Source of the DNA: a virus
UHGV virus genome: UHGV-0058267
DNA: 15,180 bases
Reading direction: 5' to 3' (one strand)
A model generated the notes under the pieces. It had not been told where the DNA came from and did no database searches. It saw only the letters and a list, made by a program, of their open reading frames with translations. Below are positions 1,523 through 15,101 of this stretch, piece after piece (position 1 is the first letter of the stretch; each line of letters opens with the position of its first letter). The position numbers and the translations under genes are program-made.

Positions 1523-2376
1523 GCACCATCCTGAAATGGGCGGGAAATAAAACGGCCATTATGGCAGAACTGAAAAAATACCTTCCTGCTGGCCCGCGAC
1601 TGGTTGAACCTTTCGCGGGTTCCTGTGCTGTGATGATGGAGACGGATTACCCCAGCTATTTGGTTGCGGATATTAATCCTGATTTAATCAACCTCTATAA
1701 AAAGGTTGCCGCTGATTGTGAATCGTTTATATCTCGCGCCAGAGTTTTATTTGAGAACGCAAACAGGGAGATGGCTTATTACAACATAAGGCAGGAGTTT
1801 AATTACTCAACTGAAATTACTGATTTCATGAAAGCAGTATATTTCCTGTATCTCAATCGTCACGGTTACCGTGGTTTATGTCGCTATAACAAGAGCGGGC
1901 ATTTCAACATTCCCTACGGTAATTATAAAAATCCGTATTTCCCTGAAAAAGAAATTCGTGCATTTGCAGAAAAAGCCCAGCGGGCAACATTTATCTGCGC
2001 CAGCTTCGATGAAACGCTGGCAATGTTGCACGCGGGAGATGTGGTGTATTGCGATCCGCCGTATGACGGTACGTTTTCCGGCTATCACACTGATGGTTTC
2101 ACTGAAGATGACCAGTATCACCTGGCATCCGTTCTTGAACATCGGTCATCAGAAGGACATCCAGTCATTGTTTCTAACAGTGACACATCCCTGATCCGTT
2201 CGCTGTATCGCAATTTTACTCACCACTATATCAAGGTAAAACGCAGCATCGGTGTGGCAGCTGGCGAGGGTAAATCAGCAACAGAAATCATTGCTGTTTC
2301 CGGGCCGTGCTGCTGGATGGGATTTGATTATTCGCGTGGCGTGGATAGTTCTGCCGTGTACGGAGTACGTGTATGA
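1519..2376 (+). CDS. dam: Dam-type DNA N6-adenine methyltransferase (orphan; no partner endonuclease visible)
   Basis: Starts [11 protein letters not shown]. Carries the AdoMet motif EPFAGSCAV and the catalytic DPPY motif ([10 protein letters not shown]). ATG at 1519 overlaps the TraR stop (ATGA). The upstream extension to 1459 lies inside the TraR gene and is discounted. Confidence 0.9.
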
Positions 2377-4787
2377 GTCATGACGATATGAGCAACTCTA
2401 GCGGCTTTAACGAGGCCGCTGCAGCATTTTCATGGAACGGCCCGAAAAAGGCCATTAACCCTTATCTGGACCCGGCGGAAGTTGCGCCGGAGTCTGCACT
2501 TTCAAACCTGATCACTCTGTACGCTGCCGATAATGAGCAGGAACAGCTGCGCCGCGATGCACTGAGTGAGCAGGTCTGGGAGCGTTATTTCTTTAATGAA
2601 TCTCGTGATCCTGTCCAGCGCGAAATGGAGCAGGATAAGCTCATTAGCCGGGCAAAGCTGGCGCATGAACAGCAGCGTTTTAACCCGGACATGGTCATTC
2701 TGGCGGACGTCAGCGCCCAGCCCACCCATATTAGCAAGCAGCTGATGCAACGTATCGAATACTTCAGCAGCCTGGGCAGGCCAAAGGCTTATTCCCGCTA
2801 TTTGCGTGAGACGATTAAGCCATGTCTGGAGCGACTGGATTGTGTACGTGACAGTCAGCTGTCTGCTTCTTTCCGTTTTATGGCAAGCCATCAAGGGATG
2901 GAGGGCCTGCTGATCCTGCCTGAAATGAGTCAGGATCAGGTGAAACGCCTGTCCACCCTGGTAGCTGCGCATATGAGCATGTGCCTTGATGCAGCTTGTG
3001 GCGATTTGTATGCCACCGATGACGTTAAGCCAGAAGAAATCCGCAAGACATGGGAAAAGGTGGCGGCGGAAACCCTGCGTCTGGATGTCATCCCACCTGC
3101 GTTTGAGCAACTCCGTCGGAAAAGAAACCGCCGTAAACCCGTGCCCTATGAACTCATTCCGGGTTCGCTGGCGCGTATGTTGTGCGCCGACTGGTGGTAT
3201 CGGAAATTATGGAAGATGCGTTGCGAATGGCGGGAAGAGCAGTTGCGTGCTGTCTGCCTGGTCAGCAAAAAAGCATCTCCCTATGTCAGCTATGAAGCCG
3301 TGATGCATAAACGTGAGCAGCGCCGTAAGTCGCTGGAGTTTTTCCGTTCTCATGAACTGGTGAACGAAGACGGCGACACGCTGGACATGGAGGATGTGGT
3401 AAACGCCAGCAGCAGCAACCCTGCGCATCGCCGCAATGAGATGATGGCCTGTGTTAAAGGTCTGGAGCTTATCGCGGAAATGCGCGGTGACTGCGCCGTT
3501 TTCTACACTATCACCTGTCCGTCACGTTTCCATTCCACGCTCAACAACGGCAGACCCAACCCGACCTGGACAAATGCGACGGTAAGACAAAGCAGCGATT
3601 ATCTGGTCGGCATGTTTGCTGCATTTCGTAAGGCAATGCACAAAACCGGGTTGCGCTGGTATGGCGTGCGGGTGGCTGAGCCGCACCATGACGGTACTGT
3701 GCACTGGCATCTCATGTGCTTCATGCGTAAAAAAGACCGCCGCGCCATCACTGCATTACTGCGTAAGTTTGCCATCCGTGTAGACCGCGAGGAGCTGGGC
3801 AACAACACGGGGCCACGCTTTAAGTCTGAGCTGATTAACCCGCGCAAAGGAACACCGACAAGCTACATCGCGAAATACATCAGTAAGAACATTGACGGGC
3901 GTGGTCTGGCTGGCGAGATCAGCAAGGAAACGGGTAAATCCCTGCGTGATAACGCCGAATACGTTAATGCCTGGGCGTCTCTGCATCGTGTTCAGCAGTT
4001 CCGCTTCTTTGGTATTCCGGGACGTCAGGCTTACCGTGAACTTCGCTTGCTGGCTGGTCAGGCGGCAAGGCAACAGGGTGACAAAAAAGCAGGTGCGCCG
4101 ATACTGGATGACCCGCGCCTTGATGCCATCCTGGCTGCTGCTGATGCTGGTTGTTTTGCCACCTACATCATGAAGCAGGGCGGCGTACTGGTTCCCCGTA
4201 AATATCACCTTATCAGAACCGCTTATGAAATCAACGAAGAGCCGACCGCCTATGGCGATCACGGCATTCGTATTTATGGCATCTGGTCACCCATTGCAGA
4301 GGGCAAGATCTGCACTCATGCAGTGAAGTGGAAAATGGTTCGTAAGGCCGTTGACGTTCAGGAGGCGGTAGCCGACCAGGGCGCTTGCGCCCCTTGGACT
4401 CGTGGCAATAACTGTCCCCTTGCTGAAAATTTGAACCAACAGGAGAAAGATAAATCAGCAGATGGGGACCCCAGAACGGATATTATCAGCATGGATGACA
4501 AGGAGTTGCACGATTTCCTGCACAGTATGAGCAAAAAAGAGCGCCGGGAACTGGCAGAAAGGCTTCGCCTGGTTAAACCGATACGGCGTAAAGACTACAA
4601 ACAGCGAATTACAGACCATCAGCGACTGCAGCTCGTCTATGAGCTGAAGTCCAGAGGATTTGATGGTAGCGAGAAAGAGGTCGATTTACTCCTTCGCGGC
4701 GGCAGTATTCCGTCAGGAGCAGGCCTGCGTATCTTCTATCGGAACCAGCGTTTGCGGGAAGATGATAAGTGGCGGAACCTGTATTAA
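2373..4787 (+). CDS. A: P2 gpA-type replication initiation endonuclease (HUH rolling-circle nickase)
   Basis: 804 aa. HUH-type metal motif in [17 protein letters not shown], and paired catalytic tyrosines in [10 protein letters not shown] (the YxxxY of gpA). The start overlaps the dam stop (ATGA at 2373-2376). Confidence 0.95.
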
Positions 4788-4879
4788 TTACGCGGGTTAA
4801 CAATTCGTGCTCTAAATAATACCCGGTATATCAGGCTGATGAACGTAAAAAAACGTTTTACATCAGTAAGATTATTGTA

Positions 4880-4914
4880 TACTGTGAATATAAACAGTGG
4901 TTATATATACAGTA
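4880..4914. promoter_or_regulatory. LexA (SOS) operator: one near-consensus box plus an overlapping degenerate second box
   Basis: 4880-4899 reads TACTGTGAATATAAACAGTG, i.e. CTG-N10-CAG with an AT-rich spacer, against the consensus TACTG(TA)5CAGTA. 4895-4914 reads CAGTGGTTATATATACAGTA, i.e. GTG-N10-CAG with one mismatch in the CTG arm. Both lie 27-60 nt upstream of the ATG at 4941. Confidence 0.65.
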
Positions 4915-4940
4915 TTGCGTGTGGTGTCATAGGAGGAAAA

Positions 4941-5129
4941 ATGCAGGACTATTTTTTGGAGTCTTTGAAGCTCCAGCGCATTGATTTTTTTCTTAAGCTT
5001 GTCGCGGCTAGTGAGTGTAGTGATGAAGAGAAGGGGCTGGCTCTGCAGTGGGTTTCTGAATTGACTGATGAACTCATGGCAAAAATCAGAACTCACGAAT
5101 ACAACCGCTCAATGGATGTCATCAGTTGA
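4941..5129 (+). CDS. Small SOS-controlled protein of unknown function; possible antirepressor-type partner of the DinI-like gene
   Basis: 62 aa. ATG at 4941 is preceded by AGGAGGAAAA. The longer track ORF from 4839 would start upstream of the LexA boxes and promoter region, so it is discounted. Confidence 0.5.
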   Translation: MQDYFLESLKLQRIDFFLKLVAASECSDEEKGLALQWVSELTDELMAKIRTHEYNRSMDVIS

Positions 5130-5139
5130 GGTGACTTTT

Positions 5140-5373
5140 ATGCGCATTGAAATAATGATCGATAAAGAGCAGAAGATTAGCCAGTCTACCCTGGACGCCC
5201 TTGAATCCGAGCTTTACCGCAATCTGCGCCCCCTGTATCCCAAAACGGTAATTCGTATCCGAAAAGGTAGCTCTAACGGTGTGGAACTGACCGGACTGCA
5301 ACTGGACGAAGAAAGAAAACAAGTGATGAAAATTATGCAGAAGGTGTGGGAAGACGACAGCTGGCTGCATTAA
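5140..5373 (+). CDS. DinI-family protein (P2 orf91 / 186 SOS-operon type)
   Basis: 77 aa. MRIEIMIDKEQKISQSTLDALESELYRNL...WEDDSWLH has the length, N-terminal MR(I/V)E pattern and acidic Trp-containing C-terminus of DinI. RBS TGAGGTGA at 5127-5134. Confidence 0.85.
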   Translation: MRIEIMIDKEQKISQSTLDALESELYRNLRPLYPKTVIRIRKGSSNGVELTGLQLDEERKQVMKIMQKVWEDDSWLH

Positions 5374-5462
5374 GAAACGTTGCTGGCATCAGTACTTGAT
5401 TCTGAAGCCAGCAAGGTTGAACAACGAGCAGGGCGAGGCGTTAGTGTTATCATCAAAGAATT

Positions 5463-6020
5463 TCACATAAACATCTGGATTTGCTCGTTTTTTAGTTGGT
5501 TGATTTTTTCGCGCAATCTGATCTTTTCATCAGCTTTTTCCAAAGAGGCTGGTGACATGCAGTTAATCAAAGCGTCAAGGTGCTCTGGAGATTTGATAAT
5601 AAAGAACTTTTTGTATTTATTAACAAAAACGACAGAGCATTTTTTACGTTTAAGAAGCTCAATCACGTTACTCAGAGTACCCGTGCTCTTCGTATCCCAA
5701 ACCATTAATCCATAATCGGCTTCTTCTGCCATTTTGAGATCTTTCGCAGTGAAAAACGCGCGAGTGCCGGCTGCATGGCTAGTACTTACTACATGTACAG
5801 GCCATGAGCCAAGATTATTGCGCGGTTTTTCTGAGCTACTGAATACTGTGGCTTTTTCACATCCAAGTTCTAGCAATACGCGTTGAACAGATGAATCAAC
5901 ACCATTGGCATCACCAACTACAATACGAAAACGCGAGTTAACAATTTTTTTCAGACGATCCACGATGAGTGTGTCAAGGTTTTTGATGGTTATTGAACCA
6001 GCAACAAATACCGTAGTCAT
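5463..6020 (-). CDS. DprA/Smf-like (SLOG Rossmann-fold) protein; ShosA-like component
   Basis: Contains VFVAGS...RIVVGDANGVDSSVQ, the GxAxGxD nucleotide-binding signature of DprA/SLOG domains, and a C-terminal coiled-coil tail. ATG at 6020 lies 5 nt after GGAGATAG. The track start at 6032 is a TTG inside the upstream gene. The gene starts 2 nt after the PRTase stop. Confidence 0.7.
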   Translation of the reverse strand: MTTVFVAGSITIKNLDTLIVDRLKKIVNSRFRIVVGDANGVDSSVQRVLLELGCEKATVFSSSEKPRNNLGSWPVHVVSTSHAAGTRAFFTAKDLKMAEEADYGLMVWDTKSTGTLSNVIELLKRKKCSVVFVNKYKKFFIIKSPEHLDALINCMSPASLEKADEKIRLREKINQLKNEQIQMFM

Positions 6021-6022
6021 CA

Positions 6023-6604
6023 CTATCTCCAAGTCAAAGCTGCAACATAAATGCTTCTAACCTTAGTATAATCGTTTAGCACAGCACAAGCAGCCTCCAT
6101 AGATGCGCCTGTATGGTAGAGGTCGTCAATGATAAGGACATTCCAGTTGCCATTATTCTCAATACTGTCATTAACAGAGAACGAATTACCCAGCGCCGTG
6201 ATTTTCTCTTCTTTTGTATTCAGGTTCTTTAGCGAAGCCCCGCCGGGGGCTTTCAACAAGAGGTCATCGAAGCATGGTTTGCCAACTAGTTTGGCTAGTT
6301 CCTGAGCTATTTCGGTCACTGGCTGGCGTGCACGCTGATTAGATGCAGCCATTGGAACGATAAACCCGACATTGCTGAAATGAGGAAAGGCATGCTCTGC
6401 TAGGCATTGGGCTAAAGGCTTAACTTGTGACCAATCGTCACGGTATTTAAGCTGGAAAAGAGATTCGCCTACCTCAGTACGCTCAGTCTCAAACCGCATA
6501 TGTCCCCACTCATCGTAACCAATGGGAATGCTGCGGATGCTGTGTTTATCCATCGCAAGACCTAATTCCCAATTTCCAACAATCTGTTTTATGTTGACTT
6601 TCAT
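6023..6604 (-). CDS. ComF/GntX-like type I phosphoribosyltransferase; ShosT-like component
   Basis: PRPP-binding loop VLIIDDLYHTGASM (aa 156-169, acidic pair D160-D161). 193 aa. It is the first gene of a two-gene minus-strand operon. Confidence 0.8.
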   Translation of the reverse strand: MKVNIKQIVGNWELGLAMDKHSIRSIPIGYDEWGHMRFETERTEVGESLFQLKYRDDWSQVKPLAQCLAEHAFPHFSNVGFIVPMAASNQRARQPVTEIAQELAKLVGKPCFDDLLLKAPGGASLKNLNTKEEKITALGNSFSVNDSIENNGNWNVLIIDDLYHTGASMEAACAVLNDYTKVRSIYVAALTWR

Positions 6605-6875
6605 GGCTCACCGTTTGCTGTGTAAAACACCAAAGACTACCTCTTGTTATATTTGGTGAAAGCGAAAGTTTCATTTTTTGCAGTGGAGATCAAATGTTAC
6701 TCCGTGAACATTTTTAGCATGTGGCCTCGCTACACGGTTTGGCGTAACTACTGCATGTCTATACTGCATGAATCCGCATGATCGTTTAAGGATCGCTCTA
6801 GTTGGGGCCTGCTAGGTATGGCGGGCTTTTGCTTATGTCATGCAGGTGCATGAAAACCACTATATAAAGCGGGCA

Positions 6876-6894
6876 GGCGTGGCGGGGATACGAT
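6876..6894. other. Candidate cos cohesive-end sequence (186-like)
   Basis: GGCGTGGCGGGGATACGAT compared with the 186 cohesive end as I remember it, GGCGTGGCGGGGAAAGCAT: 16 of 19 identical, including the first 13. It lies between gene A and the portal gene, where P2-family cos sits. Confidence 0.55.
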
Positions 6895-6951
6895 TGCGCT
6901 CGCATCCTTTTCGTATTAATCTGATATCAATTTAAAACGAAGAGTTCGCAA

Positions 6952-8055
6952 ATGAAAATTATTTCAATATTTAATAATAAAGGTGGTGTAGGAAAATCCA
7001 CTCTTGGATACCATACTGCGCATGCATTGGCAGAGAAAGGTATTAAAACTTTAATGATTGACCTTGATCCACAGTCGAATCTCACTTTACAGTGTATTTC
7101 TCCTGAGGAGTTAGAAAAGTTATGGCTAGAAGAAGAGCCATTTATTGAGGACTTCCAATCAGCTTTAGAGGAAAGTAAACTTTCGTATCAAGATTTTTTG
7201 AGTAAGCCGAGAAGCATTCATTGCTTATTAAAACCAATAGAAGATGGCGTCTACGAATCTTCTTCACTAAGTTCTGTTTATGAGCTTAATGATAAATTAG
7301 GTATTATTCCAGGTCGTTTAAGTTTGCATAAATATGAGGATAAAATCGCGAAGGGTTGGAGTGATGCCTTCATGGGAGAACCTCAAGCACTGCGACTTAT
7401 TACCAGTATTAGGAACTTATGTCTAGAAGCAGAGGAAAAATTTGGTTATGAAATGGTAATAATAGACACATCTCCTAGTCTCGGTATGCTTAACAGAGTT
7501 ATCATTTCTACATCAACCGGATTTTTTGTCCCATGCATGCCCGATATGTTCTCCACCTTTGGGATTACTAACATAGGAGAGTCATTAAAGAATTGGAAAA
7601 ATCAGTTCGATACCATGTATAAACTTTTGCCTGATAAAAAGAGAAATGTTTTCCCTAAAAACTTCGTTAAGTTTTTAGGTTATACTATTTATAACGCGAA
7701 GAAATATGAAGGCAGAAATGAACTTGATTTAGCGACCGCGCATTACTCATATGTTCAGAAAATTCCCAATGTGATCAAAAAACACATTCCTCAAGAATGT
7801 TATCAAGAGCAAGATCTTGCAGACATTTCACAACCAATTGGTGGAAAATCAGTTATTCACTCGCATAATACTCTTCCTTCTATGTCTCAAAAGTATAGGG
7901 TGCCCATATGGAAAGTTCCTTTCATCCAATCCATGAGCGCAGAAGACAGAGCCACTGTTTCAGGTAATAGACAGACTTTTCTTGACAAGCAGCAGGCATA
8001 TAGTGATTTTGCCGATTCTCTTTTGGCTCGTATTGATAAGATTGGAGAAGAATAG
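6952..8055 (+). CDS. ParA/MinD-family (deviant Walker A) ATPase with a large acidic insertion and a C-terminal extension
   Basis: MKIISIFNNKGGVGKST carries the KGGxGK[ST] motif with signature K10 and K15. Walker A' is LMIDLDPQ and Walker B is YEMVIIDTSPS (D172). At 367 aa it is about 100 aa longer than a minimal ParA. The DNA is very AT-rich. Confidence 0.85.
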   Translation: MKIISIFNNKGGVGKSTLGYHTAHALAEKGIKTLMIDLDPQSNLTLQCISPEELEKLWLEEEPFIEDFQSALEESKLSYQDFLSKPRSIHCLLKPIEDGVYESSSLSSVYELNDKLGIIPGRLSLHKYEDKIAKGWSDAFMGEPQALRLITSIRNLCLEAEEKFGYEMVIIDTSPSLGMLNRVIISTSTGFFVPCMPDMFSTFGITNIGESLKNWKNQFDTMYKLLPDKKRNVFPKNFVKFLGYTIYNAKKYEGRNELDLATAHYSYVQKIPNVIKKHIPQECYQEQDLADISQPIGGKSVIHSHNTLPSMSQKYRVPIWKVPFIQSMSAEDRATVSGNRQTFLDKQQAYSDFADSLLARIDKIGEE

Positions 8056-8057
8056 TT

Positions 8058-8735
8058 ATGGCTCTTAAAGAAAAATATGCGGACATTTATAGGCGTCTTA
8101 AAGATGAGATCGATGCCTATGAATATTTCATGAAGAATATTAAAAATTTTTTCGAGTCAACTAAAGTAAAAGCTCATGTCCATTCACTTCGTTTTAGGTT
8201 GAAAGATATTGATCATCTTTTAGAGAAAATAGAAAGAAAAAACCATGAGGATGATCAGTTACCTGAAGCAGAGCGAAAAGGTCATATCACAGCTGAAAAT
8301 ATTTTTAACCGTATAACGGATATAGCTGGAATAAGAGTATTACACCTTCATTTAAGTCAAATGGAAGATATACATCGTGCAATTATGAGGGCAGTAGATG
8401 AAGGGGAGTATGCGCTTTTTGAAGAGCCAAAGGCATATACTTGGGATCCTGAGTCCAAAGTTTATTTTGAGAGTTTGGGTCTTAAGCCTCATGTAAAACA
8501 AAGTTTTTATACGAGCATTCATTATGTCCTGAAACCTAATAGAGAAGGGAGTGTTACTTGTTGTGAAGTTCAAGTCAGAACTCTTCTTGAGGAGGTTTGG
8601 GGGGAAATTGATCATACAATGAATTATCCTATCCAGCATGTCGATGAGAACTGCAAAGAACAGATAAAAATTCTTGCTAGACTGATTGGCGCTGGAAGTC
8701 ATTTAGCTGATTCAATTATGAAACGCTATCAATGA
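8058..8735 (+). CDS. Small RelA/SpoT-homologue synthetase-domain protein (toxSAS-like nucleotide pyrophosphokinase)
   Basis: All core SAS motifs are present: R47-L-K49-x9-K (FRLKDIDHLLEKIERK), TD88IAGIR, Y151TSIH155 and E170VQVRTLLEEVWGEIDH. 225 aa with no hydrolase or regulatory domains. The start lies 2 nt after the ATPase stop, with GGAGAAG upstream. Confidence 0.85.
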   Translation: MALKEKYADIYRRLKDEIDAYEYFMKNIKNFFESTKVKAHVHSLRFRLKDIDHLLEKIERKNHEDDQLPEAERKGHITAENIFNRITDIAGIRVLHLHLSQMEDIHRAIMRAVDEGEYALFEEPKAYTWDPESKVYFESLGLKPHVKQSFYTSIHYVLKPNREGSVTCCEVQVRTLLEEVWGEIDHTMNYPIQHVDENCKEQIKILARLIGAGSHLADSIMKRYQ

Positions 8736-8740
8736 AGAAC

Positions 8741-8761
8741 AGGCAGGAATCATACCTGCCT
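8741..8761. terminator. Hairpin between convergent genes; probable bidirectional terminator
   Basis: AGGCAGG-aatcata-CCTGCCT: a 7-bp perfect stem with a 7-nt loop, flanked by A/T-rich sequence. It lies 6 nt after the RSH stop and 6 nt before the portal-remnant stop. Confidence 0.6.
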
Positions 8762-8766
8762 TAATG

Positions 8767-9141
8767 TTAAATAAGTTTGTAGTCTTCAAAGTTTATTATC
8801 GGCTCATCTAACCATTTGTTAATCTCCTCAATTCTCTTTTGAAGAGGTTTAAGTTCGTTCCTAACAAAAACCATACTAGCCTTCTCCACATCCCCAAACC
8901 CCCCAACATTATTAGGCATAATCCCCATCATTTGCGGCGGCACGCGGTGCGCAGCCATCATGTCATCGCGGCTGACATTTTTGATATTCAGAAACTCATC
9001 CTTCGCCGCCACCTCTGACAACGGGATAATCTGAAGCCCGTCCTTTTTGCCGTTAGGCGAGTACATAAATAGGTTGCGGAAGTTACCCAGGGCGGCGGAG
9101 CGATGAGTTCTAACGGGATCGTGGTTGATGCGCATCAGCAT
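8767..9141 (-). pseudogene. Q: 3' fragment (about 124 codons) of the portal gene Q; the N-terminal two thirds are deleted
   Basis: ...SRDDMMAAHRVPPQMMGIMPNNVGGFGDVEKASMVFVRNELKPLQKRIEEINKWL... matches the conserved C-terminal region of P2 gpQ / PBSX-family portals, which are about 340 aa in P2 from memory. Upstream of 9141 the DNA encodes V/W on the other strand. Confidence 0.8.
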
Positions 9142-9186
9142 ACTGGCGTCCTGAAAGGCGGCGATACAACCGGAGGCCCGGTATGA
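9139..9186 (+). pseudogene. V: Last ~15 codons of the baseplate spike gene V (remnant)
   Basis: The frame ending at TGA 9184-9186 reads ...HTGVLKGGDTTGGPV*. It overlaps the W start as ATGA, as V/W do in P2-family phages. Nothing resembling the rest of V lies upstream. Confidence 0.4.
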
Positions 9187-9542
9187 CGCTTTATAGCGGG
9201 ATGAACAATACCAGCGGTAAAGCTATTACTGATATTGACCATCTGCGCCAGTCGGTGCGGGACATTCTGCTGACACCGCAGGGTAGCCGTATTGCCCGCC
9301 GGGAATATGGTTCCCTGCTGTCGGCACTGATAGATCAGCCACAAAATCCGGCATTACGCCTGCAGGTCATGTCGGCAGTGTATGTGGCGCTGAGTCGCTG
9401 GGAGCCACGGTTGACGCTGGATTCCATCACCATCAACAGCAATTTTGACGGTTCAATGGTGGTGGAGCTGACCGGGCGGCGGAATAACGGTGTGCCTGTG
9501 TCCCTTTCCGTATCAACAGGAGCAGAGAATGGCAGTGATTGA
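9183..9542 (+). CDS. W: Baseplate wedge protein gpW (GPW/gp25 family)
   Basis: 119 aa. ...DIDHLRQSVRDILLTPQGSRIARREYGSLLSALIDQPQNPAL... is collinear with P2 gpW. RBS GGAGG at 9172-9176. Confidence 0.9.
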   Translation: MTLYSGMNNTSGKAITDIDHLRQSVRDILLTPQGSRIARREYGSLLSALIDQPQNPALRLQVMSAVYVALSRWEPRLTLDSITINSNFDGSMVVELTGRRNNGVPVSLSVSTGAENGSD

Positions 9543-10437: not shown

Positions 10438-11035
10438 TCTGCTGCCACCGGGTTCAACACCACTGGAGCGCCGACTGGCACAAACCTGCAGCGGGATTTC
10501 TGATCTGCAGGTGCCGCTTCGTGACTTGTGGAATCCGGCAACCTGTCCGGTCAGTTTCCTGCCTTATCTCGCCTGGGCTTTCTCTGTGGATCGCTGGGAC
10601 GAGGGCTGGACAGAAAGCGTCAAACGCCAGGTGGTGAAGGATGCTTTTTATATTCATCAGCATAAAGGGACCACCAGTGCCGTGCGGCGGGTGGTGGAGC
10701 CGTTCGGATTCCTGATCCGCATTATTGAGTGGTGGCAGACCGGAGAAACACCGGGCACGTTTCGCCTGGATATTGGCGTGCAGGACCAGGGCATCACTGA
10801 AGATACCTATCTGGAACTTGAGCGGCTGATAAGCGATGCCAAACCATGCAGCCGTCACATGACTGGCATGTCCATCAATCTGCAGACCAGCGGTCCGCAT
10901 TGGGTAGGGGCTGCCAGCTATCTTGGCGAAGAAATCACGATCTATCCGTATATCAACGAAACGATTATTTCCGGTGGCACCGCGCATGAAGGCGGGGCGG
11001 TCCATGTTATTGACACAATGAGAGTGAATCCATGA
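10430..11035 (+). CDS. I: Baseplate / tail-fibre-attachment protein gpI
   Basis: MNSLLPPGSTPLERRLA...FLPYLAWAFSVDRWDEGW... is the P2 gpI family signature. It overlaps J by 8 nt and H by ATGA. Confidence 0.9.
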   Translation: MNSLLPPGSTPLERRLAQTCSGISDLQVPLRDLWNPATCPVSFLPYLAWAFSVDRWDEGWTESVKRQVVKDAFYIHQHKGTTSAVRRVVEPFGFLIRIIEWWQTGETPGTFRLDIGVQDQGITEDTYLELERLISDAKPCSRHMTGMSINLQTSGPHWVGAASYLGEEITIYPYINETIISGGTAHEGGAVHVIDTMRVNP

Positions 11036-12774
11036 GCACAAAATTTTATACCCTGCTGACGGAGATTGGTGCGGCGAAGCTTGCCAGCGCCACTGCACTT
11101 GGTGTGCCGCTTAAAATTACCCATATGGCGGTGGGGGATGGCGGCGGAGCATTGCCGACGCCGGACGCAAAGCAGACTGCACTGGTAAATGAGAAACGCC
11201 GGGCTGCGCTGAATATGCTTTATATCGACCCGCAGAACAGCAGCCAGATTATTGCCGAACAGGTGATCCCTGAAAACGAGGGCGGTTGGTGGATACGTGA
11301 AGTGGGCCTGTTTGATGAGTCAGGGGCATTGATTGCCGTGGGCAACTGCCCGGAAAGCTATAAGCCGCAACTGGCTGAAGGCAGCGGGCGCACCCAGACC
11401 GTGCGTATAGTGCTGATAACCAGCTGCACGGACAATATCACCCTGAAAATCGATCCTGCCGTCGTGCTGGCAACCCGCAAGTATGTGGATGACAAGGCAC
11501 TGGAGCTGAAGGTGTATGTGGATGATCTGATGGCAAAACACCTTGCCGCACCAGATCCGCATTCACAGTACGCGCCAAAAGCCAGCCCGACATTTACCGG
11601 AACCCCCAAAGCGCCAACGCCAGCGGCAGGGAATAATACCACGCAGGTTGCGACCACCGCGTTTGTACAGGCGGCACTGACGGCTCTTATTAATGGTGCG
11701 CCAGCCACGCTGGACACACTGAAAGAAATAGCCGCAGCCATTAACAATGACCCGAAATTCAGCACCACCATTAACAATGCGCTGGCACTGAAAGCGCCGC
11801 TGTCGAGTCCGGCACTTACCGGAACGCCAACAGCACCTACTGCGGCACAGTCGGTCAACAATACACAGATTGCCACCACGGCTTTTGTGAAATCGGCGAT
11901 TGCAGCAATGGTGGGTTCTGCACCTGCGGCACTGGATACACTGAACGAACTGGCGGCGGCGCTGGGGAATGACCCGAACTTTGCCACGACAATGCTTAAT
12001 GCACTGGCAGGTAAACAACCGCTGGACAATACGCTGACTAATTTGAGTGGAAAGGATGTAGCTGGTCTTCTCACATACCTTGGTTTGGGAGAAGCCAGAT
12101 TCTCTGGTCGTTTGTTAAACACGAATATTTTTAAAAGCTCTGGAAAATATATCCCAACACCAGGGACAAAAAAGATAAGGGTCATTGCCTCTGGTGGCGG
12201 TGGCGGCGGCGGTGGGGTTCCTGAAACAACAGAAAATCAGCAGGCAACAGCCGGAGCTGGATTGAGCGGCGCATTTATTGAAGCATTTTTCGAGGTTGAT
12301 AATGATTTCGAAGTCAACGTTATTATCGGTGCTGCAGGTAAAGGGGGGGGAGCCGGAGGAAATTCAGGTAGTGAAGGTGGCACAACTTATTTCGGTTCCA
12401 TGATAACTGCACCAGGTGGTACAGGCGGTGGCGCGGGGGGAGCATCTGCAAACACATCATATATTCAGGGTATTTCATGGGGTGCCAGTCCGACATCGTC
12501 CGGTACAGTACTAAGAGCATTTCGCTGTAGTGCAAAAACACCAGGAGCAATGGTTATCTCTGTTAAAGCTGTAGCAGGTGGTACCGGGGGGGATACACCA
12601 TTAGGTTCAGGCGGTATAGGTGGTGCAAGTTCTTCATCATTCAGCGGACGTGGTGGTGGTAAAGCTGAGGGCTTTGGTGCTGGCGGAGGCGGAGCCTGCG
12701 CACCTGCTGGAAGTGAGGCTCAATCGGGAGGTGACGGTGCCCCGGGAATAGTTATTGTTGAGGAGTATGCCTGA
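11032..12774 (+). CDS. H: Tail fibre protein gpH. The conserved N-terminal and shaft part is currently joined to a glycine-rich C-terminal domain encoded inside the invertible segment.
   Basis: The N-terminus MSTKFYTLLTEIGAAKLA...WWIREVGLFDESGALIAVGN is P2 H-like. It is followed by two fibre repeats. After the crossover site comes ...YIPTPGTKKIRVIASGGGGGGGG...GGDGAPGIVIVEEYA*, a typical glycine-rich fibre-tip domain. Confidence 0.9.
   Translation: MSTKFYTLLTEIGAAKLASATALGVPLKITHMAVGDGGGALPTPDAKQTALVNEKRRAALNMLYIDPQNSSQIIAEQVIPENEGGWWIREVGLFDESGALIAVGNCPESYKPQLAEGSGRTQTVRIVLITSCTDNITLKIDPAVVLATRKYVDDKALELKVYVDDLMAKHLAAPDPHSQYAPKASPTFTGTPKAPTPAAGNNTTQVATTAFVQAALTALINGAPATLDTLKEIAAAINNDPKFSTTINNALALKAPLSSPALTGTPTAPTAAQSVNNTQIATTAFVKSAIAAMVGSAPAALDTLNELAAALGNDPNFATTMLNALAGKQPLDNTLTNLSGKDVAGLLTYLGLGEARFSGRLLNTNIFKSSGKYIPTPGTKKIRVIASGGGGGGGGVPETTENQQATAGAGLSGAFIEAFFEVDNDFEVNVIIGAAGKGGGAGGNSGSEGGTTYFGSMITAPGGTGGGAGGASANTSYIQGISWGASPTSSGTVLRAFRCSAKTPGAMVISVKAVAGGTGGDTPLGSGGIGGASSSSFSGRGGGKAEGFGAGGGGACAPAGSEAQSGGDGAPGIVIVEEYA
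11584..12024 (+). repeat. Two tandem ~73-aa tail-fibre shaft repeats within H
   Basis: Repeat 1 (11584-11802): SPTFTGTPKAPTPAAGNNTTQVATTAFVQAAL..APATLDTLKEIAAAINNDPKFSTTINNALALKAPL. Repeat 2 (11803-12024): SSPALTGTPTAPTAAQSVNNTQIATTAFVKSAI..APAALDTLNELAAALGNDPNFATTMLNALAGKQPL. Confidence 0.85.
12068..12093. promoter_or_regulatory. Left recombination site (hix/gix/cix type) for the serine invertase, inside H
   Basis: TTCTCACATACC-TT-GGTTTGGGAGAA: two 12-bp half-sites around a 2-bp TT core, matching the TTnTCnnAAACC half-site pattern of Hin/Gin/Cin sites. 12080-12100 is a perfect 21-bp inverted repeat of 13516-13536. Confidence 0.85.
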
Positions 12775-13040
12775 TGAGTAATTTTGCTCTGATTGAACAT
12801 GGCGTGGTGAAAAATATTATTATCTGGGATGGAGAGGGTGATTTATTCTCTAATTGCGAAATTATAAATATTGATCATATAGATGCAGGCGTCGGTTGGT
12901 TCTATTCTGACGGAGAGTTTATAGCACCACCGGAACCGGAAATGACTGAATATGATGTTGGTAACATCGACGCGGTGATGGAAGCAGATACCAGCACCGC
13001 GCCGGGGGTTATCTGGCCAGTTCCACCTGAGATGGTTTAA
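12774..13040 (+). CDS. Small protein downstream of the active fibre tip; putative fibre chaperone or assembly factor
   Basis: 88 aa. The ATG overlaps the H stop (TGATG at 12772-12776). MSNFALIEHGVVKNIIIWDG... resembles small ORFs that I recall following glycine-rich fibre genes. No catalytic motif. Confidence 0.5.
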   Translation: MSNFALIEHGVVKNIIIWDGEGDLFSNCEIINIDHIDAGVGWFYSDGEFIAPPEPEMTEYDVGNIDAVMEADTSTAPGVIWPVPPEMV

Positions 13041-13206
13041 TCTCAATCAGAATGGGTTCGCCATTCTCGTTAACAGATATTTCCATTCCTTCAGGGATTT
13101 CAGATGCAGTAAAAAACCAGTTATCTTCTGGTAATTCCACAGCCCCGGTCACGTCATGAAGACCGGGGATTACTTCAGTCAAAGTAACAGGATTAAACAG
13201 GCGCAC
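13009..13206 (-). CDS. Alternative small fibre accessory gene, silent in the present orientation
   Basis: GTG at 13206 lies 7 nt after GGAGAG (minus strand ...cctGGAGAGtttattGTGcgc) and overlaps the stop of the silent fibre cassette by 14 nt. This gives MRLFNPVTLTEV..., 65 aa. The track start at 13296 would overlap the cassette by 104 nt. Confidence 0.4.
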   Translation of the reverse strand: MRLFNPVTLTEVIPGLHDVTGAVELPEDNWFFTASEIPEGMEISVNENGEPILIEIKPSQVELAR

Positions 13207-13548
13207 AATAAACTCTCCAGGAAAAAGCACTTGTTGATGGTCTTCCGTCGTACATCTGGCAGCGGACATAAAAACCTGTATTACTGACCTGGTCATCCAC
13301 GATCATTGAAACGTGAACGTTATTAGGTGTGGCCTCGTAATCTGTTCTTATTCTTTCCGCTATGCTGATAAAACGTGAAAGCTTAGGTAGTGCAATTGGA
13401 TAAACGACTTTAGCCAGCCCATTATCATTGGAACCACCAGTTCCAAATACTTCTATTGCACCATCTGACCAGCGTATCCATGCACCATTGACATTAGCTC
13501 CTCGCTGAATGACATATCTGGCTTCTCCCAAACCAACGTTTAAGAAAA
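13193..13548 (-). CDS. Silent, promoterless alternative tail-fibre C-terminal cassette (gp53-like tip), expressed only after inversion
   Basis: The minus-strand frame reads ...NVGLGEARYVIQRGANVNGAWIRWSDGAIEVFGTGGSNDNGLAKVVYPIALP...RVYCAPV*. GLGEAR is encoded by the shared inverted repeat, so inversion fuses it in frame to H (...TYLGLGEAR). The upstream MMPVSRNLCIF of the track ORF lies outside the segment and is fortuitous. Confidence 0.75.
13523..13548. promoter_or_regulatory. Right recombination site (hix/gix/cix type)
   Basis: TTCTCCCAAACC-AA-CGTTTAAGAAAA. The inner half-site is the exact reverse complement of the inner half of the left site, and the core AA opposes TT on the left, giving an inverted orientation. 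Confidence 0.85.
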
Positions 13549-13603
13549 TGCAGAGATTACGGCTAACTGGCATCATCTCCGGTTTTTATTCAGGGGGATG
13601 ATC

Positions 13604-14170
13604 ATGCTTATTGGCTATGTACGCGTGTCAACAAATGACCAGAACACCGATTTGCAACGTAATGCACTGAACTGCGCGGGATGTGAGCGGATTTTTGAGG
13701 ACAAAATCAGTGGCACTAAGTCCGACAGACCGGGGCTGAAAAAACTGCTCAGGACACTATCGGCAGGAGACACGCTGGTTGTCTGGAAGCTGGACCGGTT
13801 GGGGCGCAGTATGCGGCATCTTGTTACGCTGATAGAAGAGTTGCGCCAGCGTGGCGTGAATTTCCGAAGCCTGACTGACAGTATTGATACCAGTACCCCA
13901 ATGGGCCGTTTCTTTTTTCATGTCATGGGTGCCCTGGCTGAAATGGAACGCGAACTGATAGTTGAACGTACCAGGGCAGGGCTGGCTGCAGCTCGTGTTA
14001 AAGGCAGAGTAGGTGGACGCCGTCCTAAGTTGACCAGCGAACAGTGGGCACAGATTGGGCGTTTACTCGAGGCCGGAGAATCAAGACAGCGTATTGCACT
14101 GATTTTTGATGTAGGCGTTTCTACCATTTATCGAAAATTTCTGGCAAATAAGAGCAATGAATCTCCCTGA
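13604..14170 (+). CDS. Hin/Gin/Cin/Pin-family serine DNA invertase
   Basis: MLIGYVRVSTNDQNTDLQRNAL... (catalytic Ser in VRVST) followed by ...LVVWKLDRLGRSMRHL...FFFHVMGALAEMERELIVERT... and a C-terminal HTH (VSTIYRKF). ATG at 13604 lies 6 nt after AGGGGG. The track start at 13598 abuts the RBS. Confidence 0.92.
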   Translation: MLIGYVRVSTNDQNTDLQRNALNCAGCERIFEDKISGTKSDRPGLKKLLRTLSAGDTLVVWKLDRLGRSMRHLVTLIEELRQRGVNFRSLTDSIDTSTPMGRFFFHVMGALAEMERELIVERTRAGLAAARVKGRVGGRRPKLTSEQWAQIGRLLEAGESRQRIALIFDVGVSTIYRKFLANKSNESP

Positions 14171-14312: not shown

Positions 14313-15101
14313 ATGGCTCAGGATTACCACCACGGGGTGCGCGTTGTTGAAGTCAACGAAGGCACCCGATCCATTACCACGGTGAGCACAGCCATCGTGG
14401 GCATGGTCTGCACGGGCGATGATGCCGATGCAAAAATGTTTCCTCTTAATAAACCCGTACTGATCACTGATGTGCTGACTGCCAGCGGTAAAGCGGGTGA
14501 GTCCGGCACGCTGGCCCGTTCGCTGGACGCCATCGCTGACCAGGCAAAACCCGTGACCGTTGTTGTGCGTGTGCCGCAGGGTGAAACGGAAGAAGAAACC
14601 ACGACCAATATCATCGGTGCAGTGACCGCTGAAGGAAAAAAAACAGGCATGAAAGCCCTGTTATCTGCTCAGACACAGCTCGGCGTTAAACCGCGCATTC
14701 TCGGCGTGCCAGGTCATGATAACAAAGCCGTTGCTACTGAGTTGCTGAGTGTGGCGCAAAGCCTGCGTGGGTTTGCCTACCTGTCAGCATATGGCTGCAA
14801 GACGGTACAGGAGGCGATCACTTACCGTGAAAACTTCAGCCAGCGCGAAGGAATGCTGATCTGGCCTGACTTTACTGGCTGGGACACGGTGCTGAATGCC
14901 GAAGCAACGGCATATGCCACCGCCCGTGCGCTTGGTCTGCGCGCCAAAATTGATGAGCAGACCGGGTGGCACAAAAGCCTGTCCAACGTGGGCGTGAACG
15001 GTGTCACCGGAATTTCTGCAGATGTGTTCTGGGATCTGCAGGACCCGGCAACCGATGCGGGACTGCTTAACCAGAACGACGTCACCACGCTTACACGGTG
15101 A
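14313..15101 (+). pseudogene. FI: Tail sheath gene FI, truncated at codon 262 (the C-terminal third is missing)
   Basis: MAQDYHHGVRVVEVNEGTRSITTVSTAIVGMVCT...YATARALGLRAKIDEQTGWHKSLSNVGVNGVTGISADVFWDLQ... is collinear with P2 FI. P2 FI continues ...TTLIRRDGFRFWGN... to about 390 aa (from memory), whereas here it reads TTLTR then TGA. RBS AGGAGG. Confidence 0.7.

What the first reader, a model, noticed from the sequence alone, without database searches (positions are those of the whole stretch)
5374..8766. cos lies in the middle of the accessory island, with independent cargo operons on both sides
The 186-like cohesive-end sequence (6876-6894) lies in a 347-bp intergenic region. The ShosTA-like operon diverges to its left and the ParA-RSH operon to its right. 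In P2, as I recall it, the moron genes tin and old lie only on the A side of cos, and Q follows cos closely. Here about 1.8 kb of cargo has been placed between cos and the Q stop, leaving only 31 bp (the hairpin) between the cargo and Q. On a linear virion genome the two modules would therefore sit at opposite ends. One would enter the cell first and the other last on injection.
Basis: partly seen in the sequence, partly recalled or inferred. Interest (0 to 1): 0.5.

Follow-up and report, generated by a model that had tools for sequence, protein, structure and literature searches.

The report
cos splits a known prophage cargo hotspot
The packaging site (cos) of this P2-family E. coli prophage does sit between two independently swappable two-gene cargo cassettes, but this layout is common in its phage lineage, has been described since 1996, and this copy of the prophage is a deletion remnant that can no longer make virions.

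Summary
A unique P2-family cos lies at 6876-6894, inside a 347-bp intergenic region. A PRTase/DprA-like cassette (5445-6748, minus strand) diverges to its left. A ParA-RelA/SpoT cassette (6900-8766, plus strand) diverges to its right and ends 31 bp from the portal (Q) stop.

- Cargo between cos and Q is not unusual. It was present in 49 of 93 sampled P2-family contigs, in 25 of 29 from this cos lineage, and in Fels-2 and RE-2010. The site was described by Dodd & Egan in 1996.
- Both cassettes, and loci carrying both, are already listed in Rousset et al. 2022.
- Q here is only a 106-codon remnant. An 8.6-kb deletion removed the head, terminase and lysis genes, so the virion and injection argument applies only to intact relatives such as E. 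coli CFSAN061762.

New details from this work:
- The conserved cos unit is asymmetric, from about -130 to +5..+7 relative to the first cos base.
- The two slots assort independently.
- The mosaic switch maps to 30 bp inside the cos core.
- Q-side cargo is almost always transcribed away from cos (36 of 39).

Interest is low.

The parts
4941..5129 (+). Small conserved ORF downstream of replication gene A. It is part of the conserved left flank.
   Evidence: Maps onto RefSeq CDS WP_001154434 in CFSAN061762, Z0117EC0116, STEC384 and D2. The flank is 96-99% identical in relatives.
5140..5373 (+). DinI/Tum-like gene, the last conserved gene on the A side.
   Evidence: Pfam DinI E=1.3e-22. RefSeq WP_001217575 in relatives.
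5376..5418 (.). Hairpin after the DinI-like gene, probably the terminator of the rightward early/SOS transcript. It lies in the conserved flank, which ends at 5444.
   Evidence: Fold of -23 to -27 kcal/mol, z about -2. Conserved flank boundary.
5445..6748 (-). A-side cargo cassette, 1,304 bp, including its own upstream region 6605-6748.
   Evidence: Absent from Z0117EC0116, where the DinI flank joins the cos block directly. Present full-length at 99.5% identity or more in 16 of 5,426 E. coli genomes.
5463..6020 (-). DprA / LD-cluster4-like protein (the proposed ShosA-like partner).
   Evidence: [quoted passage not shown] HMMER evidence here is not significant: Pfam DNA_processg_A E=0.21, and no PADLOC hit.
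6023..6604 (-). Phosphoribosyltransferase / ComF-like protein (ShosT-like).
   Evidence: PADLOC ShosT E=1.3e-8 and PsyrT E=1.5e-7. NCBIfam comF E=3.6e-5, below its cut-off. Identical to component 2 of system #98.
6749..6899 (+). Conserved cos block of 151 bp, from -127 to +5 around the cohesive-end sequence. It is the only sequence shared between relatives that carry different cargo.
   Evidence: BLAST breakpoints against L126, L127 and L128. Phage hits cover 6749-6904. The identity profile across 120 loci rises at -130 and falls after +26.
6752..6779 (+). Upstream TGCAT repeats (6752, 6765, and an imperfect CGCAT at 6775). Candidate terminase-recognition elements.
   Evidence: TGCAT sits at -130..-101 in 70-86 of 113 loci and at -29 in 111 of 113, and is almost absent on the Q side. 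The repeats are aligned in P2, 186 and P4. Their function is inferred.
6847..6901 (+). 55-bp cos core, TGCATGAAAACC...GGCGTGGCGGGGATACGAT TGCGCTC, shared with P2, 186 and P4.
   Evidence: Alignment and pattern match. It corresponds to the '55-bp core' of Ziermann & Calendar 1990 as quoted in PMC5694545.
6876..6894 (+). Predicted 19-nt cohesive-end sequence.
   Evidence: 16 of 19 bases match 186 and 14 of 19 match P2. The same ATACGAG/T type occurs in 43 of 120 IMG/VR P2-family loci. Cleavage was not tested.
6864..6893 (.). Mosaic switch interval. To its left the window follows the haplotype of prophages that carry the PRTase cassette. To its right it follows the haplotype of prophages that carry ParA-RSH.
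   Evidence: Five-way alignment A1, with flank identities.
6900..8766 (+). Q-side cargo cassette, 1,867 bp.
   Evidence: Homology to STEC384 and D2 stops at 6899 and resumes inside Q at 8772 or 8812. Present full-length at 99.8% identity or more in 7 of 5,426 E. coli genomes, always next to the portal gene.
6952..8055 (+). ParA/MinD-class P-loop ATPase (KGGVGKS motif).
   Evidence: Pfam AAA_31 E=6.5e-28 and CbiA E=7.7e-13. [quoted passage not shown]
8058..8735 (+). Small RelA/SpoT-homologue (RSH) nucleotidyl/pyrophosphotransferase.
   Evidence: Pfam RelA_SpoT E=9.6e-17, 61.7 bits against a cut-off of 27. Distant matches to the small alarmone synthetases RelQ, RelP and YjbM in the PDB. PADLOC PDC-S33 E=3e-5.
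8741..8761 (.). Hairpin between the RSH stop and the Q stop. A probable bidirectional terminator that belongs to the cargo cassette.
   Evidence: Terminator-like on the minus strand. -11.5 and -12.5 kcal/mol on the two strands, z -3.3 and -3.9. Each different Q-side cargo has its own, different hairpin at this position.
8767..9088 (-). Remnant of portal gene Q: the C-terminal 106 codons plus the stop codon.
   Evidence: Pfam Phage_portal, partial, profile positions 200-276 of 321. 100% identical to the 3' end of the 342-aa portal gene of CFSAN061762.
9082..9088 (.). Deletion junction with 7-bp microhomology (GTTACCC). 8,596 bp are missing: the N-terminal part of Q, then P, O, N, M, L, X, the holin, lysozyme, lysB/C, R, S and most of V.
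   Evidence: BLAST against the intact relative L005 and sequence inspection.

Best explanation
The region is the well-known variable 'A-to-Q' hotspot of a P2-family (Felsduovirus-like, retron-Ec67-type) E. coli prophage. A short conserved cos unit divides the hotspot into two separate cargo slots.

The cos unit runs from about -130 to +5..+7 relative to the first cos base. It holds three upstream TGCAT repeats, the 55-bp core and the 19-nt cohesive-end sequence. All recognisable conserved elements lie on the A side of the cut. On the Q side only 5-7 bp are conserved. Anything beyond these limits varies freely.

Each slot holds a self-contained two-gene candidate anti-phage cassette that is transcribed away from cos:
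- PRTase plus a DprA-like protein on the A side, convergent with the early/DinI transcript.
- A ParA-like ATPase plus a small RelA/SpoT homologue on the Q side, convergent with the late Q-P operon and ending in its own hairpin.

Cassettes are swapped between related prophages by recombination. The A/DinI flank, the cos block and the portal gene serve as the homology arms, so the two slots assort independently. The arrangement seen here looks like a recombinant of a PRTase-cassette prophage and a ParA-RSH prophage, with the crossover inside the invariant 30 bp of the cos core.

Shown: the anatomy, the breakpoints, the independent assortment, the mosaic switch point and the frequencies. Inferred: that recombination is the exchange mechanism, that the TGCAT repeats bind terminase, and that the cassettes act in defence.

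In this window the prophage has since lost its head, terminase and lysis genes, so cos is a relic in this copy.
For: - cos identity.
- Asymmetric conservation from -130 to +26. Homology breaks 6-8 bp after the 19-mer across dozens of unrelated cargos. TGCAT positions in 113 loci.
- Slot boundaries at 5444/5445, 6748/6749, 6899/6900 and about 8771-8811.
- Independent assortment: Z0117EC0116 has ParA-RSH only. STEC384 and D2 have the PRTase cassette with other Q-side genes. Cassette counts are 7 and 16 genomes, with one genome carrying both.
- Mosaic switch between 6864 and 6893. The left flank is 99.0% identical to STEC384 against 96.0% to Z0117. The right flank is 98.9% identical to Z0117 against 84.5% to STEC384.
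- Q-side cargo frequency: 49 of 93 loci overall, 25 of 29 in this cos lineage and 4 of 28 for the P2-type cos, Fisher p=4e-8.
- Named functional phages with the same layout: Fels-2 and RE-2010.
- Intact relative with an identical locus and a full gene set.
- Literature: the A-Q hotspot and both cassettes are catalogued in PMC9122126. The cos-to-terminator insertion site is from Dodd & Egan 1996, cited in PMC5694545 and PMC6868368.
Against: - Cleavage at this cos was not shown, and this copy cannot package.
- No convincing sigma-70 promoter was found in 6605-6951. The scan was no better than shuffles, so divergent transcription rests on gene orientation alone.
- Defence activity of these two cassettes has not been tested. 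The DprA+PRTase system validated by Rousset et al. is a different, larger variant.
- A 30-bp crossover interval is short for RecA-dependent recombination, so another route cannot be excluded, for example recombination stimulated by a break at cos.
Confidence: 0.85

Rival explanations
1. Cargo placement and orientation are shaped by what happens at the DNA end, not by passive tolerance. Under this reading the Q-side slot is the leading end of the injected genome, and its genes point inward so they can be expressed before circularisation. Alternatively, cos cleavage itself creates the entry point or recombination hotspot for new cargo.
For: - 36 of 39 distinct Q-side cargos are coded away from cos, p=3.6e-8, while the A side shows no bias (19 vs 20).
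- A very sharp common breakpoint lies 5-7 bp beyond the cohesive end.
- The mosaic switch maps inside the cos core.
- The P4 hotspot genes gop-beta-cII occupy the same side and orientation.
- All recognition repeats lie on the other (A) side. By analogy with lambda cosB, this would make the Q side the last end packaged and the first ejected. That step is inference.
Against: - P2 packaging and ejection polarity could not be retrieved.
- The orientation bias is equally explained by sharing one bidirectional terminator with Q and by keeping transcription out of cos.
- The sharp breakpoints are equally explained by purifying selection on cos.
- These genes are expressed from the prophage, where entry order does not matter.
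Confidence: 0.1
2. The ParA-RSH pair is not anti-phage cargo. It is a maintenance module (partition or addiction) that lets the element persist as a plasmid-like replicon.
For: - ParA-class ATPase, with weak matches to partition ParA/RepA models.
- Rousset et al. note putative partition systems in about a quarter of P2-like hotspots.
- Toxic RSH enzymes are classic toxin-antitoxin toxins (PMC7229694, listed).
Against: - There is no ParB or centromere partner. The adjacent gene is the RSH.
- All partition-model scores are far below their cut-offs and cover only the Walker A region.
- The partition modules in Rousset's tables are StbA/Plasmid_stab_B, not this pair.
- All 7 occurrences are chromosomal prophages.
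Confidence: 0.1
3. The whole 5445-8766 segment, cos included, is a single island acquired in one event, and the 19-mer is a passenger or chance sequence.
For: Only the contiguity of the cassettes in this window and in CFSAN061762.
Against: - The cos block is conserved at this position in hundreds of relatives, with or without either cassette.
- Each cassette occurs alone with other partners.
- No other cos candidate exists in the window.
Confidence: 0.02

Closest known systems
P2 'TO region' (tin and old) between gene A and cos
   Same: Non-essential anti-phage genes next to cos on the A side, transcribed leftward away from cos. This matches the PRTase/DprA-like cassette here.
   Different: P2 has nothing on the Q side: the Q stop is 167 bp from cos and only the terminator tQ lies between. 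The genes themselves are unrelated.
Retron Ec67/Ec86 insertion site in a 186-related prophage (Dodd & Egan 1996, Virology 219:115, as cited in PMC5694545, PMC6868368 and PMC7826664)
   Same: Foreign DNA replaces the segment between cos and the end of the DNA-packaging (portal) operon. The prophage type is the same, with a Dam methylase upstream of A.
   Different: The cargo here is ParA-RSH rather than a retron. In this lineage the replaced segment also takes out the ancestral terminator and the last codons of Q, and each cargo brings its own hairpin.
Felsduovirus phages Fels-2 and RE-2010 (Salmonella)
   Same: Same backbone: the A-DinI flank is 92-94% identical and the cos type is the same. 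There is a 1.7-kb ORF (Fels-2) or an AIPR abortive-infection gene (RE-2010) between cos and Q on the plus strand. Fels-2 also has a 732-bp ORF on the A side.
   Different: Different cargo genes, and those phages are intact.
P2-like A-Q defence hotspot catalogue (Rousset et al. 2022, PMC9122126)
   Same: Same locus definition. Both cassettes are listed, #98 with identical proteins and #110 with the same ParA, and loci with both are in Table S5A.
   Different: That paper, and the 2026 follow-up PMC13586616, treat A-Q as one hotspot 'adjacent to cos'. In the passages I read they do not separate the two sides, and a term search of the 2026 paper found no mention of 'orientation'.
Satellite P4 hotspot (gop-beta-cII) next to cos
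   Same: Shares the 55-bp cos core and the upstream TGCAT repeats. Its cargo starts just after the cohesive-end sequence on the same side as the Q-side slot and is transcribed away from cos.
   Different: P4 has no portal gene. No cargo was shared between P4-like and P2-like loci in my sample, in line with PMC13586616.
Lambda cos (cosQ-cosN-cosB)
   Same: An asymmetric packaging site in which the terminase-recognition elements sit on one side of the nick site. This is established knowledge used here as an analogy.
   Different: No sequence relationship. The roles of the TGCAT repeats and the packaging direction in this lineage are inferred, not shown.

Membership tests
P2-family (Peduoviridae) cos site | 19-nt cohesive-end sequence of the form GGCG(A/T)GGCGGGGA...... 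| tested here: met
   6876-6894. 16 of 19 bases match 186 and 14 of 19 match P2. Unique in the window.
P2-family (Peduoviridae) cos site | Conserved 55-bp core shared by P2, 186 and P4 (Ziermann & Calendar 1990, as quoted in PMC5694545). | tested here: met
   6847-6901 aligns with P2, 186 and P4. A 42-nt degenerate core pattern matches with 0 mismatches.
P2-family (Peduoviridae) cos site | Position between the replication gene A region and the 3' end of portal gene Q. | tested here: met
   gpA is at 2373-4787 and the portal remnant at 8767-9088. The intact relative has the same order.
P2-family (Peduoviridae) cos site | Terminase cleavage giving 19-nt 5' overhangs at the virion DNA ends. | not testable with these tools
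   Needs virion DNA from an intact relative. The prophage in the window lacks terminase and head genes.
P2-like A-Q anti-phage hotspot (Rousset 2022) | Variable gene content between gpA and gpQ in otherwise related prophages. | tested here: met
   The arrangement is listed in Table S5A.
P2-like A-Q anti-phage hotspot (Rousset 2022) | The cargo confers phage resistance. | not testable with these tools
   Systems #98 and #110 are catalogued but are not among those reported as tested.
cos-to-terminator replacement site (Dodd & Egan 1996) | Foreign DNA lies between cos and the terminator of the portal/terminase operon. | tested here: inconclusive
   The left junction is 5 bp after cos, which fits. 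The right junction lies inside the last codons of Q, and the hairpin is specific to the cargo rather than the ancestral terminator. I could not read the 1996 paper itself.
ShosTA (PRTase toxin plus DprA-like antitoxin) | ShosT-type phosphoribosyltransferase. | tested here: inconclusive
   PADLOC ShosT E=1.3e-8, covering profile positions 81-208 of 237 only. Pfam Pribosyltran E=0.01, below its cut-off.
ShosTA (PRTase toxin plus DprA-like antitoxin) | ShosA-type DprA-like partner. | tested here: not met
   No PADLOC hit. Pfam DNA_processg_A E=0.21. Only the HHpred-based label in Rousset Table S5B supports a DprA/LD-cluster4 fold. Call it 'ShosTA-like', not a member.
RelA/SpoT homologue (small alarmone synthetase / toxSAS class) | RelA_SpoT nucleotidyltransferase domain. 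| tested here: met
   PF04607, 61.7 bits against a cut-off of 27. Distant PDB matches to RelQ, RelP and YjbM.
RelA/SpoT homologue (small alarmone synthetase / toxSAS class) | Toxicity neutralised by a cognate partner. | not testable with these tools
   Needs expression experiments.
ParABS partition system | A ParA ATPase together with a ParB/centromere partner. | tested here: not met
   The ParA-class ATPase is present. The only partner gene is the RSH, and partition-model scores are far below their cut-offs.

The most novel reading that the evidence does not exclude
The cos site is an active organiser of the hotspot, not just a landmark inside it. New combinations arise by crossovers within the roughly 30-bp invariant cos core, possibly stimulated by terminase cutting. 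The Q-side slot is orientation-locked: 36 of 39 cargos point away from cos, as in P4. Under this reading the lock exists because the Q side is the leading end of the injected DNA, so its defence genes can be transcribed before the genome circularises.
Probability: 0.1. Interest if true: 0.55.

Novelty: already known. Interest (0 to 1): 0.2.

Why it matters
As stated, the finding re-describes the P2-family A-Q hotspot, and a cos-to-portal insertion site known since 1996. Its value is mostly as correct annotation.

The added details could help anyone mining or engineering these hotspots:
- The functional cos unit can be delimited to about 155 bp and is strongly one-sided.
- The hotspot is really two slots that reshuffle independently. 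Treating A-Q as one locus inflates the count of 'arrangements' and mixes unrelated systems.
- Slot use is lineage-specific: P2-type phages load the A side and Felsduovirus-like phages load the Q side.
- Q-side cargo has a near-fixed orientation.

These points are incremental, not surprising.

Tried and rejected
- Promoter scan of 5300-9200: 6 sites against 9.4 expected, and none in the 347-bp intergenic region. Uninformative.
- Pfam, PADLOC and NCBIfam on the DprA-like protein: no significant hit. The 'ShosA-like' label therefore rests on the HHpred-based label in the published table.
- Search for P2 packaging or ejection polarity (Chattoraj & Inman 1974; Ziermann & Calendar 1990). Only citations could be found, with no statement of which end is attached to the tail. 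The 'first in / last in' claim stays open.
- Test of whether Q-side cargo is shared with P4-like satellites through the common cos core. The 8 P4-like loci in the sample shared no cargo. The one apparent hit, L061, is a truncated P2-like locus.
- Search for the window's Q-V deletion junction in 5,426 complete E. coli genomes. It was not found. One genome, AREA_497, appears to have a different portal-baseplate deletion in this region, judged only from the span of its match.
- PANGU (nucleoid protein plus toxSAS) as an identity for ParA-RSH. It resembles it only in logic, and the sensor family differs.
- A first three-way MAFFT alignment misaligned the Q side because the P2 record carries cos at both ends. 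It was redone anchored at cos.

Full report
**What the window is.** ORF listing and domain scans show a P2-family prophage. The gene order is:
- Dam methylase (1459-2376)
- replication protein gpA (2373-4787)
- a small ORF and a DinI/Tum-like gene (to 5373)
- two minus-strand genes (5463-6604)
- a 347-bp gap
- a ParA-class ATPase (6952-8055)
- a RelA/SpoT-domain protein (8058-8735)
- a portal fragment on the minus strand (8767-)
- baseplate and tail genes W, J, I and H, an invertase, and the tail sheath

The closest complete genome is E. coli CFSAN061762. It is 100% identical over window 4700-9088 and carries an apparently intact prophage with the same genes around cos.

The 19-mer GGCGTGGCGGGGATACGAT at 6876-6894 is the only cos-like sequence in the window. 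A 42-nt degenerate P2/186/P4 core pattern matches at 6847-6888 with no mismatch, where none is expected by chance. Anchored alignment with the circularised ends of P2, 186 and P4 shows the shared core TGCAT(T/G)AAAACC-N7-(A/G)AAG(C/T)GGGC(A/G) + 19-mer + (T/C)GCGC. This matches the '55-bp core' of Ziermann & Calendar as quoted in PMC5694545. All the stated distances are correct: 347 bp intergenic, 1872 bp from cos to the Q stop, and 31 bp between the RSH stop and the Q stop. The 31-bp gap holds a 7-bp-stem hairpin at 8741-8761. The recalled P2 layout is also correct. In P2, Q stops 167 bp after cos with only tQ in between, and tin and old lie on the A side. In 186 the portal gene stops 176 bp after cos.

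The 'Q' next to the cargo is only the last 106 codons of the portal gene. Relative to CFSAN061762 the window lacks 8,596 bp. That segment holds the N-terminal part of Q, P, O, N, M, L, X, the holin, lysozyme, lysB/C, R, S and most of V. The junction carries 7 bp of microhomology (GTTACCC, 9082-9088). A second deletion junction lies at 15092. This copy therefore cannot build heads or cut cos. The argument about virion ends applies only to intact relatives.

**Anatomy of the island.** Comparison with E. coli relatives that carry other cargo gives sharp boundaries.
- In Z0117EC0116 the DinI flank (to window 5444) joins the cos block (from 6749) directly. The A-side cassette is therefore 5445-6748.
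- In STEC384 and D2, homology to the window runs through 6899, only 5 bp past the cohesive-end sequence. It resumes inside the 3' end of Q at 8772 or 8812. The Q-side cassette is therefore 6900 to about 8770.
- What remains between the cassettes is a 151-bp cos block (6749-6899).

Across 120 P2-family loci pulled from IMG/VR with a cos pattern, identity to the window is confined to about -130..+26. On the Q side, dozens of unrelated sequences start 6-8 bp after the 19-mer, following a common (C/T)GCGCGC. The motif TGCAT occurs three times at -130..-101 and once at -29 in nearly all loci, and almost never on the Q side. In the window these repeats are at 6752, 6765, 6775 (imperfect) and 6847. 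The cos unit is therefore strongly one-sided. I infer that the repeats are terminase-recognition elements; I did not show this.

**The two slots are independent.** In 5,426 complete E. coli genomes the ParA-RSH cassette occurs full-length in 7 and the PRTase/DprA-like cassette in 16. Only CFSAN061762 has both. ParA-RSH occurs with an empty A-side slot. The PRTase cassette occurs with three hypothetical genes, an AAA ATPase, DUF262, AIPR and others on the Q side.

A five-way alignment of the cos block shows where the window's haplotype switches. Up to 6863 it follows the PRTase-cassette prophages, differing from Z0117 at about 25 sites. From 6894 on it follows the ParA-RSH prophages, including the last base of the 19-mer. 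The mosaic switch therefore lies in the 30 invariant bp from 6864 to 6893, inside the cos core. Flank identities agree: 99.0% against 96.0% on the left, and 98.9% against 84.5% on the right.

**How common is cargo on the Q side?** Of 93 IMG/VR loci where both cos and the Q stop could be placed, 49 have more than 300 bp between them. The distance is bimodal: about 145-210 bp, or 382-4389 bp. Slot use depends on lineage (Fisher p=4e-8):

| cos type | loci with Q-side cargo |
|---|---|
| the window's type (ATACGAG/T) | 25 of 29 |
| ATAGCAT | 13 of 18 |
| 186-type | 5 of 12 (mostly one small ORF of about 490 bp) |
| P2-type | 4 of 28 |

In the window's lineage the A side is often minimal, about 480-800 bp holding only the small ORF and DinI. 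Cargo on both sides is also frequent.

Named phages show the same layout. Fels-2 has a 732-bp ORF on the A side and a 1.7-kb ORF on the Q side. RE-2010 has an AIPR abortive-infection gene on the Q side. P4's gop-beta-cII hotspot sits on the same side of cos in the same orientation.

**Extra regularities.** 36 of 39 distinct Q-side cargos are coded on the strand leading away from cos (61.8 kb against 5.8 kb, p=3.6e-8). The A side shows no bias, 19 against 20. Each Q-side cargo ends in its own hairpin just before the Q stop. The last ~35 residues of the portal protein also differ between relatives with different cargo. The replaced segment therefore reaches into the end of Q.

**The cargo.**
- The PRTase gives a partial PADLOC ShosT hit (E=1.3e-8). 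Its partner gives no significant DprA or ShosA hit here. 'ShosTA-like' is acceptable; membership is not shown.
- The RSH has a clear RelA_SpoT domain and only distant similarity to small alarmone synthetases.
- The ParA-class ATPase has no ParB partner.

Both cassettes are already listed in Rousset et al. 2022 Table S5B: #98 (33 occurrences) with identical protein sequences, and #110 (29 occurrences) with the same ParA. Loci with both are in Table S5A. Neither is among the systems reported as tested. The validated DprA+PRTase system is a larger variant from APEC O1 that sits on the A side of a P2-type cos.

**Comparison with what is known.** The A-Q interval is the published P2-like defence hotspot 'adjacent to the cos site' (PMC9122126; PMC13586616). 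Later papers state that the position between cos and the packaging-gene terminator is where retrons Ec67 and Ec86 replaced DNA in a 186-related prophage (Dodd & Egan 1996), and that it is a proposed hot spot for foreign genes in P2-like phages. The finding's central point is therefore already known. In the passages I read, I did not find these points stated:
- the explicit split into two slots by a roughly 150-bp one-sided cos unit
- the lineage-specific slot preference
- the Q-side orientation bias
- the crossover mapping to the cos core

The 2026 paper does not contain the word 'orientation'.

**Verdict.** The structure is real and well explained: two independently recombining cargo slots flank a minimal cos unit in a Felsduovirus-like prophage, which in this window has decayed. 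It is ordinary for the lineage and already catalogued. The one reading that would raise interest is that end biology sets the orientation and boundaries of the Q-side slot, through leading-end expression or cos-stimulated recombination. This remains unproven because the packaging and ejection polarity could not be established here.

Noticed in passing
window 8767-9141 and 9082-9088; also 15092 and 371-652: The prophage is a remnant. An 8,596-bp deletion runs from inside portal gene Q to the end of V, with 7-bp microhomology GTTACCC. A second junction at 15092 fuses the tail-sheath gene to the tape-measure region, losing about 3 kb. A 282-bp segment at 371-652 replaces 32 bp of the intact relative. 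The Q-V junction is absent from 5,426 complete E. coli genomes.
   Followed up: partly
IMG/VR loci L006-L125, region between cos and the Q stop: 36 of 39 distinct Q-side cargos are coded on the strand that leads away from cos (61.8 kb against 5.8 kb, binomial p=3.6e-8). A-side cargo shows no orientation bias (19 against 20).
   Followed up: partly
window 8767-8870; L126-L128, L131, L132 portal 3' ends: The last ~35 residues of the portal protein diverge between relatives with different Q-side cargo, while the rest of the protein is conserved. The swapped segment seems to include the 3' end of Q and a cargo-specific hairpin terminator.
   Followed up: partly
window 6952-8735: A ParA-class ATPase paired with a small RelA/SpoT homologue. 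In logic it resembles the recently described PANGU systems (nucleoid-bound sensor plus toxSAS effector, bioRxiv 10.64898/2026.04.06.716658), but the sensor family is different. It is listed as untested system #110 in Rousset 2022.
   Followed up: partly
window 12774-14170: A serine DNA invertase (13598-14170) sits next to the tail-fibre gene H (11032-12774), with oppositely oriented ORFs at 13009-13576. This suggests an invertible tail-fibre host-range segment.
   Followed up: no
window 6894 and alignment A1: The last base of the 19-nt cohesive-end sequence (T here, G in most of the lineage) travels with the Q-side ParA-RSH cassette, not with the rest of cos. The cohesive end itself is therefore mosaic.
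   Followed up: partly
IMG/VR loci L008, L052, L081, L083, L098: A cos variant, GGCGTGGCGGGGAGAGCAT, occurs only in loci without detectable gpA or gpQ. These are probably P4-like satellites with their own cos subtype.
   Followed up: no
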